Part shown: one piece after another, positions 27,464 through 32,988 of the stretch | How the letters are laid out: the number at the start of each line of letters is the position of its first letter | How positions within the stretch are numbered: the stretch's first letter is position 1 | Source: Thermoproteota archaeon | GTDB taxonomy: Archaea > Thermoproteota > Methanomethylicia > Methanomethylicales > Methanomethylicaceae | NCBI GenBank assembly: GCA_020832905.1 | Contig: JAJHRG010000001.1 | Coordinates: forward strand, 564,940 to 628,939 | Length of the DNA: 64,000 nt | Reading direction: 5' to 3' | Translations under genes and position numbers: made by a program | The notes under the pieces: model-generated | The model's database searches: none | Told to the model about the DNA's origin: nothing | The model's input: the letters and a program-made list of their open reading frames with translations, nothing else

Positions 27464-27709
27464 ATGAGTGATTTAAAACAATACATAGAAGAGACAATAT
27501 ATAAAATACTAATAGAAAATCTTAAGAAAGGAAATTTTTCTGCAAATCTTAAAATAGAAATAGATATGCCAATAGAAATAAAAGGAGTAAAAGGAAGAAT
27601 AGTAGGTGAAATTACAATTGGAGATACTTTAAAAGAAGTAAAAATAAATAAAACTGAAGAGGTTAATTTAAATGAAATTGAAAATATATTAAAATCTCTT
27701 GGAGTATAA
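27464..27709 (+). CDS. Hypothetical small protein
   Basis: 81-aa ORF. Confidence 0.3.
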   Translation: MSDLKQYIEETIYKILIENLKKGNFSANLKIEIDMPIEIKGVKGRIVGEITIGDTLKEVKINKTEEVNLNEIENILKSLGV

Positions 27710-27768
27710 TAAGAGACAAATTTTTAAGATTTACTTCCCTTTATATTATTTGGAGAAAATAATTTGCA

Positions 27769-28578
27769 ATGAAAATCATTAACTTATTATTACTAAGTCT
27801 ATTATTTTCACTTATACTAGCTTATCCTATATTAGCTCAATCTAATAATATGTACATAAAACTTCAAAAATTTACAATTTATGATATTAATCGTGATTTT
27901 ATATACATAGAATATTTAGGAGAAGAAGATATTATAGTTTTAATTGTAAAATCAGATTCTAATTTAGATATAGTAAAACAAAGTATCGGTATTGGTTATG
28001 GTAGTATTACAATACATATTAAAAATACTTCATATAAATTAGGATCATGTATAATTGCTTTATTCTCTACAAAATCCTTTTTACTAAATATATCTATGAG
28101 AATGGGAGAAATACCACTACAAACTCAAACAATTTCTGTACCTGCTAATATTACATTACAAATGGAAATACCAATAGAATATGGTGGTTATCAACAGCCA
28201 ATATATACTATTACTAATGTTTCATATACTCCATATTTTCCAATATGGACTCTTTTAACATATGCTATAATATTACCAATGTTTATTATAACAGGATATT
28301 TAGATAAAAACTCATTGAAAATTATGAGAAAACGTTGGACACAATTAGATACATTTGCCATTATAATAAGATATGCTTTTTATGCTTTTTTAGTAATATT
28401 CATTATAGTAACTATTGAAATTGTAGTAGAATACATATTATCTAGACTTAATATTTATGCAATAAGTTTACATATAGGAGATTGGTTTATCTCATGTATT
28501 TTATTTTCTATATTTACTATAATATATGGAATAGGAAAATGGAGGGGAATATTTGAAAATGTTGATGGAGAAGAGTGA
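27769..28578 (+). CDS. Hypothetical membrane protein with N-terminal signal peptide
   Basis: Signal-like N-terminus plus C-terminal TM helices. Confidence 0.35.
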   Translation: MKIINLLLLSLLFSLILAYPILAQSNNMYIKLQKFTIYDINRDFIYIEYLGEEDIIVLIVKSDSNLDIVKQSIGIGYGSITIHIKNTSYKLGSCIIALFSTKSFLLNISMRMGEIPLQTQTISVPANITLQMEIPIEYGGYQQPIYTITNVSYTPYFPIWTLLTYAIILPMFIITGYLDKNSLKIMRKRWTQLDTFAIIIRYAFYAFLVIFIIVTIEIVVEYILSRLNIYAISLHIGDWFISCILFSIFTIIYGIGKWRGIFENVDGEE

Positions 28579-31267
28579 AGATTATTGGTGGTGGATTAAA
28601 AGACCTATTTTAAGAAAATTATTATGTTTACCATTATATTTAGCTAATAGAGAATATAGAAGATGGAGAAATGCAAGATTAAATCCAAGAATTATTAAGA
28701 AAAAATTAGCAGAAATAGATAAAAAATTTCCAAAAAAGAAAGAAGATCTTATTGGAAGAGATAAAGAATATCAATTGATAATGAGTGCAATTGGTTATCA
28801 TGTTATAAGAGATCCTTCACTATTAAATATATTTAAGGGAGCACCTCCACCAAAATTCTTTATACTTAAGGGTACAACAGGTACTGGAAAAACATTACTT
28901 GCAGAAGTTTGTATAAGAGATGCTATAGAATATGGAATAAGTAAGGGAGTAAATGTACAACCAATAGTTGTTATGGGAAGTGATATATTTAATCCATTAT
29001 ATGGACAATCAGTTATTAATTTATCATATATATTTAGAAAAGCAAAGGATACTCCAAGTATAATATTCTTTGATGAATTTCAAAGCATAGGTATACGTGT
29101 AGAAAGACCAATGTATGGTGCAGATAGAGAAGATATGAGAGTACAAGATGCATTTATAGAGCATATTAATAAAATACTAAATACACCTCAAAGAACTATT
29201 GTTATTGCTGCTACAAATAAATTTGAAAGTATTAGAGAAGATATTAGAAGAAGAGCATATGTAATTGATTTAGATCAGAATATTACAAGAGAAATGCTTC
29301 TTGCAGTTCTTAAAGCTGAGTTAGAAAAATATGGATGGACACATTTATCACCTAATGAAGTTTTAACAGTATTAGAAAAAGCTGTAAGTACATATAGACA
29401 AACACAACTTACACCTTTTGATATAATTGATGCATGTAATAGAGTTAGAAGTAAAAAAATAGAACCTTTAAGAGAAAAGTTTTTCAAAAAGATGATATTT
29501 AGTAAAAAAACTACTTCTGATGATTTGAAGTTATTAGTAACAATAGATGATTTTAAGTTAGTTGCAAGAGAGTTAAGAGGATATACAGAACAAGAAAAAA
29601 GCGATGAAGTTATGGCTTCAGTATTAAGAATAAAACCAGCTGTTAGCTATAAAGATATTGGAGGACTTTTTGGAATAAAGGAAAAACTATTTAAAATAAT
29701 ATCTCTAAGTCTTTCTCCTGAATTAGCAAGTAAGTTAAACTGGGTTCCACCAAAAGGCTTTTTACTATGGGGAGAACCTGGTTGTGGAAAAACATATCTT
29801 TCAAAAGCAATTGCAAAAGAAAATAATGCAACATTCTTTTATGTTCCTGCAGCTCAACTTTTAATTAATGCAAAATGGGTTGGAGAACCTGAGAAAAATG
29901 TAAGAGATTTATTTGCACTTGCAAGAAGACATGCACCAAGTATAATATTTTTTGATGAATTTGATGTTATTGCTGGAAAAAGAAGAGGAGATCCTGTAAG
30001 TGATAGATTAACTGCACAAATATTAACAGAACTAGATGGTTTACAGCCATTAGAGAATGTAATAGTAATAGCAGCAACAAATAGATTAGATGCAATTGAT
30101 GAAGCAATAATTAATAGATTTGAACCATATGTAATAGAAATTCCCTTACCAAGAAATGATGCAGAACGTTTAGATATTATAAAGGTTCATTTAAGACATT
30201 ATATTGCTCATCTTCATCCTGAAGTTACTCCTGAGAAAGTATTAAATATACTAAAAAAACATAAAGTAGTTTCTCCAAGAGTAGTTAGTGAAATTATAAG
30301 AGAAGCAAATAGATTAAGATCACAAGAAGTTAATGCAGCAATAGAAATTACTAGAAATAAAGATAGATTAGCAGAAATTTACAATCTTTATAGAGAAGAA
30401 ATTGAAAGATTAAAAGAAGTTTTAGGTGCTTTAGATTATGAAGTACTAAAAGAAGTTAAACCAGAAACCTATAAAATAAGACTTTATCATTTTGAAAAAG
30501 CTGCTGAAGAACTTGAAAGTGAAATTGAAAAAGAAATAATGGATGCTCAGGAAAGTATGATTTATGAGAAACTTAATCCTGGTGTAGCATTAGGTCTTGC
30601 TACAGATCCTCAAGGTAGAAAAGGAGTAATACTAATAGTTGAATGTGCATCAAAACCAAATGGTAGTGGTAAAATTACAGTAACAGGAGCAGCAAAAACT
30701 GCAGTTATAGGTCCTGGTACAACAGTTGAAGATGTAAGTGTTATTGAAAGTGCTACTAATGTCATAGAGTTTATTAAGAGATATATCTATGAAAAACTAG
30801 GAATAGATATTTCAAATTATGATTTTACATTTCAAGTTATAAGTCCACTTGAGGGAGCACCAGGAATGGGAGTAAGTGGTCCAAGTCTTGGTCTTGCTTT
30901 TAGTGTAGCTGCTATATCTGAACTTGCAGGAATAGAAGGAAGAAAAGATGTAGTTATGAGTGGAAAAGGTGATATAAAGGGAAATGTTGGTCCTGTAGGA
31001 GGAATGAGTTGGCGTGGATCAGGAAAAATTTTAGCTGCAATTCAAACAAAAAGAATAAAGATTAAAAAATTTATAATTCCAAAGTGGAATTATGAGCATT
31101 CTCCTGATGAAATAAATATACTTAAAGAAGAAGGTATTGAAGTTATACCTGTTGAAAAGCAAGTAGAAGCATGGCTTAATGTATTCTCAATAACTGAAGA
31201 AGAATTACTAAATAGAATTGCTAAAAATATTGAATTAAAGTCTAATATTAAAGCAATATTAAGGTAA
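28559..31267 (+). CDS. Tandem-AAA+ ATPase fused to a C-terminal Lon (S16) protease domain
   Basis: Walker A/B pair 1: GTTGTGKT / IIFFDEFQ. Walker A/B pair 2: GEPGCGKT / IIFFDEFD, with a classic-AAA IAATNR sensor. The C-terminus GPSLGLAF...DVVMSGKGDIKGNVGPVGGM...GKILAA aligns with the Lon catalytic Ser/Lys region. Confidence 0.75.
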   Translation: MLMEKSEDYWWWIKRPILRKLLCLPLYLANREYRRWRNARLNPRIIKKKLAEIDKKFPKKKEDLIGRDKEYQLIMSAIGYHVIRDPSLLNIFKGAPPPKFFILKGTTGTGKTLLAEVCIRDAIEYGISKGVNVQPIVVMGSDIFNPLYGQSVINLSYIFRKAKDTPSIIFFDEFQSIGIRVERPMYGADREDMRVQDAFIEHINKILNTPQRTIVIAATNKFESIREDIRRRAYVIDLDQNITREMLLAVLKAELEKYGWTHLSPNEVLTVLEKAVSTYRQTQLTPFDIIDACNRVRSKKIEPLREKFFKKMIFSKKTTSDDLKLLVTIDDFKLVARELRGYTEQEKSDEVMASVLRIKPAVSYKDIGGLFGIKEKLFKIISLSLSPELASKLNWVPPKGFLLWGEPGCGKTYLSKAIAKENNATFFYVPAAQLLINAKWVGEPEKNVRDLFALARRHAPSIIFFDEFDVIAGKRRGDPVSDRLTAQILTELDGLQPLENVIVIAATNRLDAIDEAIINRFEPYVIEIPLPRNDAERLDIIKVHLRHYIAHLHPEVTPEKVLNILKKHKVVSPRVVSEIIREANRLRSQEVNAAIEITRNKDRLAEIYNLYREEIERLKEVLGALDYEVLKEVKPETYKIRLYHFEKAAEELESEIEKEIMDAQESMIYEKLNPGVALGLATDPQGRKGVILIVECASKPNGSGKITVTGAAKTAVIGPGTTVEDVSVIESATNVIEFIKRYIYEKLGIDISNYDFTFQVISPLEGAPGMGVSGPSLGLAFSVAAISELAGIEGRKDVVMSGKGDIKGNVGPVGGMSWRGSGKILAAIQTKRIKIKKFIIPKWNYEHSPDEINILKEEGIEVIPVEKQVEAWLNVFSITEEELLNRIAKNIELKSNIKAILR

Positions 31268-31317: not shown

Positions 31318-32988
31318 ATGGAAGAAATTTTAGCACTAGTATTTATACTTCTGATATCTACTATATGTGCTTTAATATTTGGAAAATTGAAAATTCCATC
31401 AATAGCCTCTTATATAATAGCAGGATTATTAGTAGGACCAATATTAAGAATTGTAGAACCATCTTCTGTACAATTTTTAGCTGATTTAGGTATTGCATTA
31501 ATGACATTTCAAATAGGATTAAACTTTAGATTTGAAGTATTACAAAAAAGAAGAATAGAATTTTTCTTATTATTCATATTTGAACTCATATTCATTTCCT
31601 TTTTATGTATAGTTCTCTCTACTTTACTAGGATTTCCACTTTATGTATCATTTGTACTGATACTTATTGCAATTAATTCTAGCACAATAATTTTCTTTAA
31701 ATTAATAGAAAATAAAATAGATAAAAGAAGTGAATTATTTGAAATTATAGTAGGTTTGGGTATTGCTGAAGATATTTTTGTTATGAGTGGAATTTCAATT
31801 CTTCCATCATTAGTTAGTTTAGAAAAATTTAGAATAATGGAAGCATTTGCTTTAATTGGAAATAGTATTTTAATAGCTATGGGGATTTTGGCTTTTAGTC
31901 TTAATATTGTACCTTATATCATAAATTACTTAATAAAAGAAAAAAATGAAGAAATTTTAATATTACTTATATTAAGTATTGCAATAGGCTATGGTATTAT
32001 AGCTAATTGGTTTGGTCTTTCTTTTGCTTTTGGATCTTTTATTGGTGGTATTTTAATATCTAGATTAAATATACCAGAAGAAACACTTGAAAAAATAAAA
32101 TCATTAAGAGACTTATTTGCTATTATTTTCTTTGTATCTATTGGTCTTTCTACCCCCTATCTTAAAAATATTGAAATGCTACCATTAGCAATTATTATTG
32201 CATTTATGTTAATTATGATAAGATTTATTTCAATTATTTTATCAAGTTGGATAATTTTAGGATATGAAAATGCATTTAAAATGGGAATTGATTTAATGAT
32301 ATTAAGTGAATTTGCTTTAATTGTATCAAGAGAATCTTATAGATTTAATTTAATAAATGAAATAATATTCATTGCTTCAGTATTTTCTGTATTATTTTCA
32401 TCAATTATTGGTTCTATTTTTATTGAAAGAGAAGAATACTTAATAAGAAAAATTGATACTATATTACCATTAAGAATAAAGAATTTTATGAATAAATTTT
32501 CATATATTTTTACATTAACATTAAAGAAAGTAAATATTTCATCTGAAGGTTATAAATTACTACTAAGTTTAATTGAAAAAATGATAATATTAATCAGCAT
32601 ATTGATAGTAGGTTCTATATTATTACAAAATATCATAAGTATATATGGAATACAAAGTTTTTCAATTATTATTTCTACAGTAGTTATAATATTACTATTT
32701 ACTTCATCATTTATAATATTATTAAGAATGCGAAAGGATATAGATCTCTTATTGAATTGGTATATAAATACACTAGAAAGGAAAAATACATTTAAAAAAT
32801 CAATTTACAAACTTATCTTTTTCATAATTAATATAACAATAATCCTGAATATATTTATAATAATAACAAGAATTTTAAGTAGTTATTTTGAAATAACAAA
32901 TATTTTTTCATCTTTAATTTTCTTAGTTTTTGCAATAATTGTAATACTTATACTCTATAGGGAGATAAAAATACTCTTAAGAATTTAA
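31318..32988 (+). CDS. Cation:proton antiporter (CPA2/Kef-type) membrane protein
   Basis: 556 aa, polytopic, with a KefB-like N-terminal TM pattern. Confidence 0.7.
   Translation: MEEILALVFILLISTICALIFGKLKIPSIASYIIAGLLVGPILRIVEPSSVQFLADLGIALMTFQIGLNFRFEVLQKRRIEFFLLFIFELIFISFLCIVLSTLLGFPLYVSFVLILIAINSSTIIFFKLIENKIDKRSELFEIIVGLGIAEDIFVMSGISILPSLVSLEKFRIMEAFALIGNSILIAMGILAFSLNIVPYIINYLIKEKNEEILILLILSIAIGYGIIANWFGLSFAFGSFIGGILISRLNIPEETLEKIKSLRDLFAIIFFVSIGLSTPYLKNIEMLPLAIIIAFMLIMIRFISIILSSWIILGYENAFKMGIDLMILSEFALIVSRESYRFNLINEIIFIASVFSVLFSSIIGSIFIEREEYLIRKIDTILPLRIKNFMNKFSYIFTLTLKKVNISSEGYKLLLSLIEKMIILISILIVGSILLQNIISIYGIQSFSIIISTVVIILLFTSSFIILLRMRKDIDLLLNWYINTLERKNTFKKSIYKLIFFIINITIILNIFIIITRILSSYFEITNIFSSLIFLVFAIIVILILYREIKILLRI

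What the first reader, a model, noticed from the sequence alone, without database searches (positions are those of the whole stretch)
28559..31267. 904-aa protein combining two classic AAA modules with a C-terminal Lon (S16) protease domain
There are two complete Walker A/B sets (GTTGTGKT/IIFFDEFQ and GEPGCGKT/IIFFDEFD), and the IAATNR sensor is typical of classic AAA (Cdc48/FtsH clade). The C-terminus aligns with the Lon catalytic region, GPSLG (Ser) ... DVVMSGKGDIKGNVGPVGGM ... GKILAA (Lys). Canonical archaeal LonB has a single AAA+ module with a membrane insertion. A Cdc48-like tandem AAA fused to a Lon protease looks like a non-canonical, self-compartmentalising unfoldase-protease. The N-terminal 100 aa (W-rich, basic) have no obvious homolog.
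Basis: partly seen in the sequence, partly recalled or inferred. Interest (0 to 1): 0.6.

Follow-up and report, generated by a model that had tools for sequence, protein, structure and literature searches.

The report
Membrane-tethered double-AAA Lon protease
This archaeal gene encodes an undescribed type of ATP-driven protein-degrading machine, two Cdc48-like motor modules fused to a Lon protease, and it is always paired with (or in Asgard archaea fused to) a small membrane protein, so it probably works at the membrane much as FtsH does in bacteria.

Summary
ORF 28553..31267 (+) encodes 904 aa from a TTG start. It has two bona fide classic AAA modules (Pfam PF00004 twice) and a C-terminal Lon S16 domain. 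In 62 homologues, both Walker A/B sets, the D1 RRR arginines, D2 R522, and the Lon Ser778 and Lys825 are invariant.

It is not LonA, LonB, LonC or LonBA, and it is not Cdc48:
- The motors are classic AAA, not the Lon type.
- The protein has no transmembrane insertion and no Cdc48 N domain.
- A Pro precedes the catalytic Ser.
- Ser and Lys are separated by 46 or 48 residues, not 42.

The gene just upstream (27769..28578) encodes a membrane protein that overlaps the start by 26 nt. A homologue sat directly upstream in all 36 closest split loci that matched it. A second clade (21 of 21 loci) has its own membrane protein there. In Odin-, Hod- and Promethearchaeota the same transmembrane module is fused to the N-terminus.

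The family is rare and was found only in uncultured TACK and Asgard archaea. Sources call it just "AAA family ATPase", and six literature searches found no description.

Best reading: a membrane-tethered, hexameric, double-ring unfoldase-protease. Function is inferred, not shown.

The parts
27740..27747 (+). TATA-like box (TTTATATT) about 25 nt upstream of the partner gene's ATG. Possible archaeal promoter of the two-gene unit. Weak evidence, because the genome is only about 27% G+C.
   Evidence: sequence; composition. Inference from the usual archaeal TATA spacing.
27769..28578 (+). Partner gene, 269 aa membrane protein. Layout: signal peptide or TM1 (residues 1-24), beta-rich ectodomain (about 27-138), three TM helices (about 156-258), acidic cytoplasmic tail ...KWRGIFENVDGEE.
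   Evidence: ORF. No Pfam or PADLOC family. TM segments and a basic loop consistent with positive-inside. C-terminal 110 aa align collinearly with the N-terminal TM extension of Asgard fused homologues (BLASTP E 4e-12). A homologue lies directly upstream of the AAA-Lon gene in all 36 clade-1 split loci that matched it. AF2 model has mean pLDDT 63.6, about 70-84 in most ectodomain blocks.
28234..28542 (+). Three-helix transmembrane module of the partner. This is the conserved core: it is the whole partner in Bathyarchaeia clade 1 (124-127 aa) and the part that is fused to the protease in Asgard archaea.
28541..28547 (+). SD-like GGAGGGG formed by the partner's W-R-G codons, 5 nt before the TTG start of the AAA-Lon gene.
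   Evidence: An SD-like motif is present at this position in 31 of 37 split loci. Asgard fused proteins lack the WRG residues.
28553..28578 (+). 26-nt overlap of the two genes. The downstream frame is +1 relative to the upstream frame, which implies translational coupling.
   Evidence: The frame relation is the same in all clade-1 split loci examined (overlaps of 8-62 nt, all equal to 2 mod 3).
28553..31267 (+). AAA-AAA-Lon gene, 904 aa plus stop codon.
28553..28732 (+). N-terminal basic, Trp-rich helical region (residues 1-60; the first 70 residues hold 21 K+R and 4 W). Family-conserved juxtamembrane linker. It contains no TM helix.
   Evidence: W38 invariant, W13 nearly so; helices, pLDDT about 80; composition; maximum 19-residue hydropathy in the whole protein is 1.36
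28742..29500 (+). D1 classic AAA module (residues 64-316). Walker A G107-T114 (K113), pore-loop-1 Y150-G151, Walker B D174-E175, sensor-1 N222, SRH arginines R232-R234.
29501..29623 (+). D1-D2 linker (residues 317-357), modelled with low confidence.
29624..30355 (+). D2 classic AAA module (residues 358-601). Walker A G407-T414 (K413), pore-loop-1 K441-W442-V443-G444, Walker B D468-E469, sensor-1 N510, single SRH arginine R522 (INRFE), invariant S574-x-R576 in the lid.
30356..30559 (+). Helical insert between the D2 lid and the protease domain (residues 602-669).
30560..31192 (+). Lon (S16) protease domain (residues 670-880). Pro777-Ser778 (nt 30884-30886) and Lys825 (nt 31025-31027), with 46 residues between Ser and Lys.
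31196..31264 (+). C-terminal helix (residues 882-904). The protein ends ...KAILR, which is not a proteasome-docking HbYX tail.
   Evidence: HbYX definition from PMC3493965.

Best explanation
Genes 27769..28578 and 28553..31267 form a two-gene unit encoding a membrane-tethered, ATP-dependent protease of a previously undescribed architecture.

The small partner is a membrane protein: signal peptide or TM1, ectodomain, three TM helices, and a cytoplasmic acidic tail. It anchors the large subunit at the cytoplasmic face of the membrane.

The large subunit is expected to assemble, like Cdc48 and Lon, into a hexamer. That would stack a D1 ring and a D2 ring of classic AAA ATPases on a ring of Lon Ser-Lys protease domains. 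Aromatic pore loops (Y150 in D1, W442 in D2) would pull substrate polypeptides through both rings, driven by ATP hydrolysis, into the Lon chamber, where Ser778 and Lys825 cut them. The most likely substrates are damaged or unassembled membrane and membrane-proximal proteins. That would be an FtsH-like job done with different parts.

Shown here:
- the domain architecture
- intact and invariant catalytic motifs
- absence of any TM helix in the large subunit
- the strictly conserved adjacent membrane partner
- its fusion to the protease in Asgard lineages

Inferred:
- physical association of the two proteins
- hexameric assembly
- processive proteolysis
- the substrate class
For: Architecture:
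- Pfam AAA matches twice and Lon_C once.
- The CDC48 profile matches residues 56-669 in one collinear stretch.
- VAT and p97 are the best solved relatives by sequence.
- The AF2 model (mean pLDDT 81.8) aligns over about 550-660 columns to p97/Cdc48 chains (Foldseek E down to 5e-29).
- The protease domain is closest to archaeal LonB.

Catalytic competence: invariant in 62 of 62 homologues are K113, D174/E175, R232-R234, K413, D468/E469, N510, R522, P777-S778 and K825. Pore-loop aromatics are conserved: Y150 is Y in 61 and F in 1; W442 is W in 49 and Y in 13.

Membrane tether:
- The partner's C-terminal 110 aa align end to end with the N-terminal TM extension of Asgard fused proteins, and the junction falls exactly at the gene boundary (sequences).
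- A partner homologue lies directly upstream in all 36 clade-1 split loci that matched it. A clade-specific membrane protein lies upstream in 21 of 21 clade-2 loci.
- Nitrososphaerales and Marsarchaeota members also have a membrane-protein gene directly upstream.
- Gene overlap with a constant +1 frame and an internal SD-like TGGAGGGG (31 of 37 loci) points to coupled translation.
- Topology puts the partner's C-terminus in the cytoplasm.

Housekeeping character:
- Neighbouring genes differ between lineages and are metabolic here.
- An NJ tree roughly follows taxonomy.
- Identity between phyla is 60-90%.
Against: - There is no experimental evidence for any member. All are from metagenome-assembled genomes.
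- D2 lacks the canonical arginine finger at sensor-1 +11, which is N, S or D in all 62 sequences. D2 hydrolysis may therefore be slow or regulated.
- D1 is strongly diverged (46.8 bits to the CDC48 profile).
- The N-terminal region of the large subunit is not a clear amphipathic membrane binder. How the split subunits hold together is unknown.
- Homology between the clade-1 and clade-2 partners was not demonstrated (hhalign probability 9%).
- Only a monomer model was made. Ring stacking is an analogy to Cdc48 and Lon.
- The substrate class is a guess from membrane location alone.
Confidence: 0.6

Rival explanations
1. A soluble, stand-alone cytosolic Cdc48-Lon unfoldase-protease. On this view the upstream membrane protein is only a neighbour.
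For: The large subunit has no TM helix. It carries everything a self-contained AAA protease needs.
Against: The adjacent membrane-protein gene is conserved in every lineage examined, while all other neighbours change. The same TM module is covalently fused in Asgard homologues. The genes overlap with a constant frame offset and an internal SD-like motif.
Confidence: 0.12
2. A regulatory or site-specific processing protease. The partner's ectodomain senses an extracellular cue and gates cleavage of one or a few specific cytoplasmic or membrane targets, rather than general quality control.
For: The ectodomain varies between lineages: a beta-sandwich of about 110 residues here, about 340 aa in Nitrososphaerales, and none in Bathyarchaeia clade 1 or Asgard. 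A peptidase M50 (site-2 protease family) gene lies within about 5 kb in Bathyarchaeia loci of both clades.
Against: The ectodomain is dispensable in whole lineages. Two rings with aromatic pore loops suggest a powerful general unfoldase. No regulator gene is conserved in the neighbourhood.
Confidence: 0.12
3. One enzymatic part is effectively inactive. Either D1 or D2 acts only as an assembly ring (as in NSF D2), or the Lon domain serves mainly as a scaffold. The machine would then act as an extractor or chaperone that hands substrates to the proteasome.
For: D2 has lost the canonical arginine finger. D1 is very diverged. LonC shows that Lon-family proteins can lose ATPase activity (PMC9569914; PMC3391209 abstract).
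Against: Walker A, Walker B and sensor-1 of both modules are invariant or nearly so, and the Ser-Lys dyad is invariant, across 62 sequences down to about 38% identity. That argues for selection on catalysis. There is no HbYX tail (HbYX definition from PMC3493965).
Confidence: 0.08
4. An anti-virus defence module of the AAA-ATPase plus protease type (Iet-like or BrxL-like).
For: The PADLOC IetA models match D2 (135.9 bits).
Against: PAN and CDC48 profiles score higher on the same region (about 170 bits), so the hit is generic AAA similarity. The partner matches no defence model. The surroundings are metabolic genes. The NJ tree roughly follows taxonomy.
Confidence: 0.03

Closest known systems
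Cdc48 / p97 / VAT (type II classic AAA unfoldases)
   Same: Tandem D1-D2 classic AAA modules, collinear with the CDC48 profile and with p97 structures. D2 is 42-45% identical to archaeal Cdc48 D2. Both modules have aromatic pore loops.
   Different: No N-terminal substrate or adaptor domain. No HbYX tail. The SRH is of the short RRF type without the P-G-R insertion, and D2 has a single arginine. A covalently attached protease takes the place of docking to the 20S proteasome. The score is far below the family cut-off (214 against 802.65 bits).
Archaeal LonB (MEROPS S16, membrane-bound Lon)
   Same: A Lon Ser-Lys protease domain whose closest solved relatives are the A. fulgidus and Thermococcus LonB proteins. 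A single-chain ATPase-protease. Membrane-associated. Archaeal.
   Different: LonB has one Lon-type AAA+ module with the membrane anchor inserted in it, an Asp before the catalytic Ser, and exactly 42 residues between Ser and Lys (PMC9569914). Here there are two classic AAA modules, no TM segment in the chain, a separate or N-terminally fused anchor, a Pro before the Ser, and 46 or 48 residues between Ser and Lys.
FtsH (bacterial and organellar membrane AAA protease)
   Same: Overall logic and topology: an N-terminal TM and extracytoplasmic module, then classic-clade AAA, then a C-terminal protease on the cytoplasmic side. The FtsH profile matches D2 at 126.7 bits.
   Different: FtsH has one AAA ring and a zinc metalloprotease (M41). 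Here there are two rings and a Ser-Lys protease, and the anchor is usually a separate polypeptide. No M41 match was found. The link is functional analogy, not membership.
LonBA (Firmicutes) and LonC
   Same: LonBA is presumed membrane-bound through an N-terminal anchor and has an A-type (Pro-Ser) active centre (PMC9569914). Both are recognised non-canonical Lon subfamilies.
   Different: Both keep a single Lon-type AAA+ module, which is inactive in LonC. Neither has classic AAA modules or a double ring.
MBA, the membrane-bound AAA proteins of Sulfolobus (Serek-Heuberger et al. 2009, cited in PMC3493965)
   Same: Archaeal classic-AAA proteins attached to the membrane, found in Thermoproteota.
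   Different: As far as I recall, MBA proteins have one AAA module and no protease domain. I did not compare sequences. In 2012 the known archaeal AAA groups were Vps4, MBA, Mm0854, AMA, PAN and CDC48, with no AAA-Lon group.

Membership tests
Classic AAA clade (Pfam PF00004) | AAA module scoring above the Pfam gathering threshold, with Walker A, Walker B, sensor-1 and a second region of homology | tested here: met
   Two modules. D1 alone scores 70 bits and the whole protein 187.6 bits, against a cut-off of 21.2. Motifs are invariant or nearly so in 62 sequences.
Classic AAA clade (Pfam PF00004) | Two SRH arginines (arginine fingers), the first at sensor-1 +11 | tested here: inconclusive
   D1 has R232-R234 (+10, +11, +12), all invariant. 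D2 has N, S or D at +11 in 62 of 62 sequences and keeps only R522 at +12. The numbering rule comes from my knowledge of p97 (N348/R359) and Vps4 (N277/R288-R289).
Cdc48/p97/VAT | Tandem D1-D2 classic AAA modules | tested here: met
   The CDC48 profile matches in one stretch, residues 56-669. Foldseek aligns to p97 chains over about 550-660 columns.
Cdc48/p97/VAT | N-terminal double-psi barrel / beta-clam N domain | tested here: not met
   No CDC48_N or CDC48_2 match. The N-terminus is about 60 residues of helices.
Cdc48/p97/VAT | Score above the NCBIfam TIGR01243 cut-off | tested here: not met
   214.1 bits against a cut-off of 802.65
Cdc48/p97/VAT | C-terminal HbYX proteasome-docking motif (archaeal Cdc48) | tested here: not met
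   The protein ends ...NIKAILR, after a Lon domain. Motif definition from PMC3493965.
Lon family (MEROPS S16) | Lon_C proteolytic domain with a Ser-Lys dyad | tested here: met
   PF05362 scores 52.8 bits against a cut-off of 21.1. Ser778 and Lys825 align with the Ser and Lys of the AfLonB protease domain and are invariant.
Lon family (MEROPS S16) | Exactly 42 residues between the catalytic Ser and Lys (PMC9569914) | tested here: not met
   46 residues in 49 sequences and 48 in 13. The extra residues form the insert W-R-G-x before G-K.
Lon family (MEROPS S16) | ATPase of the Lon-type AAA+ kind directly upstream of the protease domain | tested here: not met
   D2 scores 23.6 bits to the Lon profile but about 170 bits to the PAN and CDC48 profiles.
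LonB | Membrane anchor inserted within the AAA+ module | tested here: not met
   No hydrophobic 19-residue window exceeds 1.36 anywhere in the protein.
LonB | Asp before the catalytic Ser; score above the TIGR00764 cut-off | tested here: not met
   Pro777 in 62 of 62 sequences. 60.9 bits against a cut-off of 516.6.
LonA | N-terminal LON domain plus a coiled-coil helical domain; score above the TIGR00763 cut-off | tested here: not met
   No LON domain match. 62.9 bits against a cut-off of 608.05. Only the Pro-Ser active-centre type is shared.
FtsH | Peptidase M41 zinc protease domain after a single AAA module | tested here: not met
   No M41 match. TIGR01241 scores 153.8 bits against a cut-off of 600.
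Any ring-forming AAA protease | Hexameric ring with ATP-dependent proteolysis | not testable with these tools
   Only a monomer model could be made. No biochemistry exists for any member.

The most novel reading that the evidence does not exclude
This is a new, ancient class of energy-dependent protease. It would be the only known case where a double-ring (type II) classic AAA unfoldase and its protease lie in one polypeptide. It is tethered to the membrane by a dedicated partner and inherited mostly vertically from before the TACK-Asgard split. In these archaea, which lack FtsH, it would serve as the functional counterpart of FtsH.
Probability: 0.45. Interest if true: 0.75.

Novelty: new variant of a known kind. 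Interest (0 to 1): 0.62.

Why it matters
To my knowledge (not a search result), known AAA+ proteases come in two designs:
- Single-chain enzymes with one ATPase ring (Lon, FtsH).
- Separate unfoldases with one or two rings that dock onto a separate peptidase (ClpXP, ClpAP, PAN or Cdc48 with the 20S proteasome).

A two-ring unfoldase fused to its peptidase fills an empty cell in that scheme. It also gives a natural system for asking what a second ring adds to a protease.

It shows the Lon protease domain recombining with a motor from a different AAA clade. That bears on how these machines evolved.

It points to a membrane proteolysis system, beyond LonB, in uncultured archaea that include lineages close to the eukaryotic ancestor.

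The split-versus-fused partner is a clean Rosetta-stone case that predicts a testable protein-protein interaction.

Finally, public sources call these proteins only "AAA family ATPase", "SpoVK/Ycf46/Vps4 family AAA+-type ATPase" or "hypothetical protein". A specific family model would improve annotation.

Tried and rejected
- **Literature.** Six full-text searches combined Lon, Cdc48, tandem or two AAA, archaea, Asgard, Bathyarchaeota, Lon_C and PF05362. I also looked inside five papers. None describes an AAA-AAA-Lon architecture. The 2008 survey of Lon domain architectures does not list it. The library lacks most subscription journals, so this is absence of evidence only.
- **Partner fold.** The AF2 model had mean pLDDT 63.6 from only 7 sequences. 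Foldseek against the PDB gave no match at E <= 0.001, only generic Ig-like or cohesin-like beta-sandwiches. I make no functional claim for the ectodomain.
- **Partner homologues in the 5.8-billion-protein database.** Only 7 hits, all Methanomethylicia, because the word-based search is insensitive for this protein. The locus-based phmmer search was more informative.
- **Homology of clade-1 and clade-2 partners.** hhalign gave probability 9% and E 0.0035. Same position and similar topology, but common ancestry is not shown.
- **Assigning D1 to Cdc48 D1 or D2.** Scores of 52-65 bits do not discriminate.
- **Defence-system reading.** Only generic AAA hits to IetA and TRIP13. Rejected.
- **Programmed +1 frameshift making a fused protein in the split lineages.** The frame relation allows it. 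But in-frame start codons and an SD-like motif precede the start in most loci, so coupled translation is the simpler reading. Not excluded.
- **N-terminal amphipathic membrane helix.** Hydrophobic moments of 0.3-0.5 are only about 1-2 SD above the protein's mean. Not convincing.
- **Co-occurrence with canonical LonB, PAN or Cdc48 in the same genomes.** Could not be tested.
- **One failed call.** A Pfam call exceeded the residue limit and was repeated with fewer proteins.

Full report
**1. The observation**

The ORF at 28553..31267 (+) encodes 904 aa from a TTG start. The TTG lies 5 nt after an SD-like GGAGGGG, and several orthologues have ATG at the same position. I therefore take 28553 as the start.

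- GTTGTGKT 107-114 and IIFFDEFQ 170-177
- GEPGCGKT 407-414 and IIFFDEFD 464-471
- IAATNR 506-511 and INRFE 520-524
- GPSLG 776-780 and GKILAA 824-829

- Pfam finds the classic AAA family (PF00004) twice and Lon_C once.
- D1 searched on its own still scores E 3.5e-19, and the C-terminal fragment scores E 8.9e-15 for Lon_C.
- In the alignment to the A. fulgidus LonB protease-domain structures, Ser778 sits on the Ser of that domain's G-D-S motif and Lys825 on the Lys of its Q-K-I-E-A-A motif. I read these as the catalytic pair.

**2. Anatomy**

The AF2 model was built from a 62-sequence alignment and has mean pLDDT 81.8. It gives these parts:

| Residues | Part |
|---|---|
| 1-58 | helices |
| 64-316 | D1 (alpha/beta subdomain plus lid) |
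| 317-357 | poorly ordered linker |
| 358-601 | D2 |
| 602-669 | helical insert |
| about 675-880 | Lon protease domain |
| 882-903 | C-terminal helix |

Evidence that the ATPase part is a Cdc48-like tandem:
- Foldseek against the PDB returns p97/Cdc48 chains aligned over about 550-660 columns at 26-28% identity, with E down to 5e-29.
- The NCBIfam CDC48 profile aligns in one stretch, residues 56-669 onto profile positions 169-725 of 733. That is D1-D2 without the N domain.

Domain by domain:
- D1 scores best to the D1 part of the CDC48 profile, but only 46.8 bits.
- D2 scores about 170 bits to the PAN and CDC48-D2 profiles, and only 23.6 bits to the Lon profile.
- The protease domain is closest to archaeal LonB (58.7 bits).

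Against seven archaeal Cdc48 proteins taken from fetched loci, D2 is always closer to Cdc48-D2 (145-152 bits) than to Cdc48-D1 (123-138 bits). D1 cannot be assigned.

The protein is therefore a chimera: a classic-AAA tandem joined to a Lon protease domain. It is not a Lon with an extra ring.

**3. Are the catalytic parts under selection?**

In the 62 full-length homologues (identity to the query down to 38%), the following are invariant:
- D1: K113, D174, E175, R232, R233, R234
- D2: K413, T414, D468, E469, N510, R522, S574, R576
- Protease: P777, S778, K825

Pore-loop aromatics are kept. Y150 is Y in 61 sequences and F in 1. W442 is W in 49 and Y in 13.

Counting from sensor-1 as in p97 and Vps4 (my own knowledge), the +11 position of D2 is N, S or D in every sequence. 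Only the +12 arginine, R522, remains. D1 has arginines at +10, +11 and +12. The invariant R576 in the D2 lid aligns near the sensor-2 position in the VAT alignments. It might compensate in cis, but that is speculation.

**4. Relation to the Lon subfamilies**

A structural paper on Lon classification (PMC9569914) gives these rules:
- Every Lon has an ATPase domain with an AAA+ module followed by the protease domain.
- LonB carries its membrane anchor inside that module.
- LonA has Pro, and LonB Asp, before the catalytic Ser.

Here the facts differ on each point:
- The residue before the Ser is Pro (62 of 62).
- The Ser-Lys spacing is 46 residues (49 sequences) or 48 (13 sequences).
- The chain has no hydrophobic segment that could span a membrane.
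- There are two ATPase modules, both of the classic clade.
- All curated family models are missed by wide margins.

It fits none of LonA, LonB, LonC or LonBA.

**5.

The gene just upstream (27769..28578) encodes a 269-aa protein with no Pfam or PADLOC family. Its layout is a signal peptide or TM1, a beta-rich ectodomain, three TM helices and an acidic tail. It overlaps the AAA-Lon start by 26 nt in the +1 frame.

In the multiple alignment, homologues from Odin-, Hod- and Promethearchaeota are about 100 residues longer at the N-terminus, and the extension is hydrophobic. The last 110 residues of the window's upstream protein align end to end with that extension (30% identity, E 4e-12). The junction falls exactly at the gene boundary. 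The partner here ends ...FENVDGEE, and the Asgard protein reads ...YELIDEELYGFKPWW.

A scan of one genome per species found about 64 species with full-length or near-full-length members, all uncultured:
- Methanomethylicia
- Nezhaarchaeales
- Sulfolobales and Desulfurococcaceae MAGs
- Hecatellales
- Bathyarchaeia (two clades)
- Odin-, Hod-, Prometh- and Heimdallarchaeota

Four contigs carry bacterial or unplaced labels (Methylomirabilota, Dormiibacterota, 'bacterium', 'archaeon'), probably binning errors.

Partner conservation across these loci:
- A homologue of the window's partner lies directly upstream in all 36 clade-1 split loci that matched it.
- A clade-specific membrane protein (285-308 aa) lies upstream in 21 of 21 clade-2 loci.
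- More distant members from Nitrososphaerales and Marsarchaeota also have a membrane-protein gene ending 6-21 nt before the start.
- Other neighbours are not conserved. In this window they are branched-chain amino-acid biosynthesis genes, a Na+/H+ exchanger and a geranylgeranyl reductase.

The ectodomain is absent in Bathyarchaeia clade 1 and in Asgard archaea. The TM module is therefore the conserved core.

Topology places the partner's C-terminus in the cytoplasm. The loop between TM2 and TM3 has 5 K+R, consistent with the positive-inside rule. That matches where the AAA-Lon N-terminus must be in the fused proteins.

**6. The gene junction**

In all clade-1 split loci examined, the downstream frame is +1 relative to the partner's frame. 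The partner's conserved K-W-R-G codons read TGGAGGGG, an SD-like motif, 5-12 nt before in-frame start codons in 31 of 37 loci. The Asgard fused proteins have K-H-L in place of W-R-G.

Translational coupling of the two cistrons is the simplest reading. A programmed +1 frameshift that makes a fused product is not excluded, but nothing requires it.

In an NJ tree without support values, the fused Asgard proteins form one group next to Bathyarchaeia clade 1, whose partner is the short TM-only form. The tree as a whole roughly follows taxonomy. A single fusion or fission by a one-base change is a reasonable inference.

**7. Size and spread of the family**

Residues 550-904 were searched against 1.84 billion cluster representatives. 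Only 31 matched at E <= 1e-10 and 9 at E <= 1e-30. All nine distant representatives tested have the same AAA, AAA, Lon_C architecture. Source names are only "AAA family ATPase", "SpoVK/Ycf46/Vps4 family AAA+-type ATPase", "transitional endoplasmic reticulum ATPase" or "hypothetical protein".

A 2012 census of archaeal AAA groups lists Vps4, MBA, Mm0854, AMA, PAN and CDC48 only (PMC3493965). A 2008 survey of Lon domain architectures does not list AAA-AAA-Lon_C. Six literature searches found no description.

**8. Mechanism**

By analogy with Cdc48 and Lon (established knowledge), the large subunit should form a hexamer with D1, D2 and protease rings stacked on one axis. Substrates would be gripped by Y150 and W442, translocated with ATP hydrolysis, and cut by Ser778 and Lys825 in the enclosed chamber. 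The partner, or the fused TM module, holds this assembly at the cytoplasmic face of the membrane.

The overall layout is TM and ectodomain, then classic AAA, then protease. That is the layout of FtsH, which archaea lack (my knowledge), so membrane-protein quality control is the most likely job.

- Shown: architecture, motif conservation, partner conservation and fusion.
- Inferred: complex formation, oligomeric state, processivity and substrates.

The rival readings are listed with their weights: soluble enzyme, specific regulatory protease, a partly inactive machine, and a defence module. The defence reading rests only on generic AAA similarity to IetA.

**9. Verdict**

This is a new architectural variant within the AAA protease world. 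As far as I can tell it is the first with a double classic-AAA ring and the protease in one chain. It has a dedicated membrane anchor and is conserved across TACK and Asgard archaea. It deserves experimental follow-up. Function remains untested.

Noticed in passing
P0157 (1261 aa; distant family representative): This AAA-AAA-Lon homologue carries an intein (Intein_splicing and LAGLIDADG_3 Pfam matches, residues about 569-876) lying between the second AAA match and the Lon domain.
   Followed up: no
P0152 / P0290 (1120 aa, Nitrososphaerales; locus L087 4001-7363): The marine Nitrososphaerales version has an extra C-terminal peptidase domain (Pfam BSP, PF04450, residues 970-1112) after the Lon domain. 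That puts two different protease domains on one double-AAA motor. Its upstream partner is a 441-aa membrane protein with a large ectodomain.
   Followed up: partly
L003 8745-10498 and L005 275-2142 (Bathyarchaeia loci of clade 1 and clade 2): In both Bathyarchaeia clades, a divergently oriented GNAT acetyltransferase gene and a peptidase M50 (site-2 protease family) gene lie within about 5 kb of the partner and AAA-Lon pair. They sit downstream in one locus and upstream in the other. This could be chance synteny within one class or a loose membrane-proteolysis neighbourhood.
   Followed up: no
window 28541-28578: The last 12 codons of the partner gene are dual-coding. The protein motif K-W-R-G doubles as an SD-like TGGAGGGG for the next gene, and the D-E codons create the in-frame ATG start candidates. 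The Asgard fused proteins have K-H-L in place of W-R-G.
   Followed up: yes
window 27464-27709: An 81-aa ORF lies between the leuA-like gene and the partner gene. It has no Pfam match and is rich in Lys, Glu and Ile. I did not check whether it is conserved next to the pair in other genomes.
   Followed up: no
window 31318-32988: The Na+/H+ exchanger homologue (PF00999 over residues 12-369) has an extra hydrophobic C-terminal extension of about 190 residues with no family match.
   Followed up: no
window 1-64000: G+C is very low (about 21-35%, mostly about 27%), and ARAGORN finds no tRNA gene in 64 kb. The closest relatives of the focal gene are Methanomethylicia (Verstraetearchaeota) MAGs at 92% protein identity. 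A JGI metagenome contig carries a partner protein 100% identical over 90% of the query.
   Followed up: partly
L041, L058, L059: Three contigs carrying family members are labelled as bacterial MAGs (Methylomirabilota, Dormiibacterota, 'bacterium'). Their proteins sit within the Bathyarchaeia clades at 38-60% identity to the query. These are probably binning contaminants rather than bacterial members.
   Followed up: no
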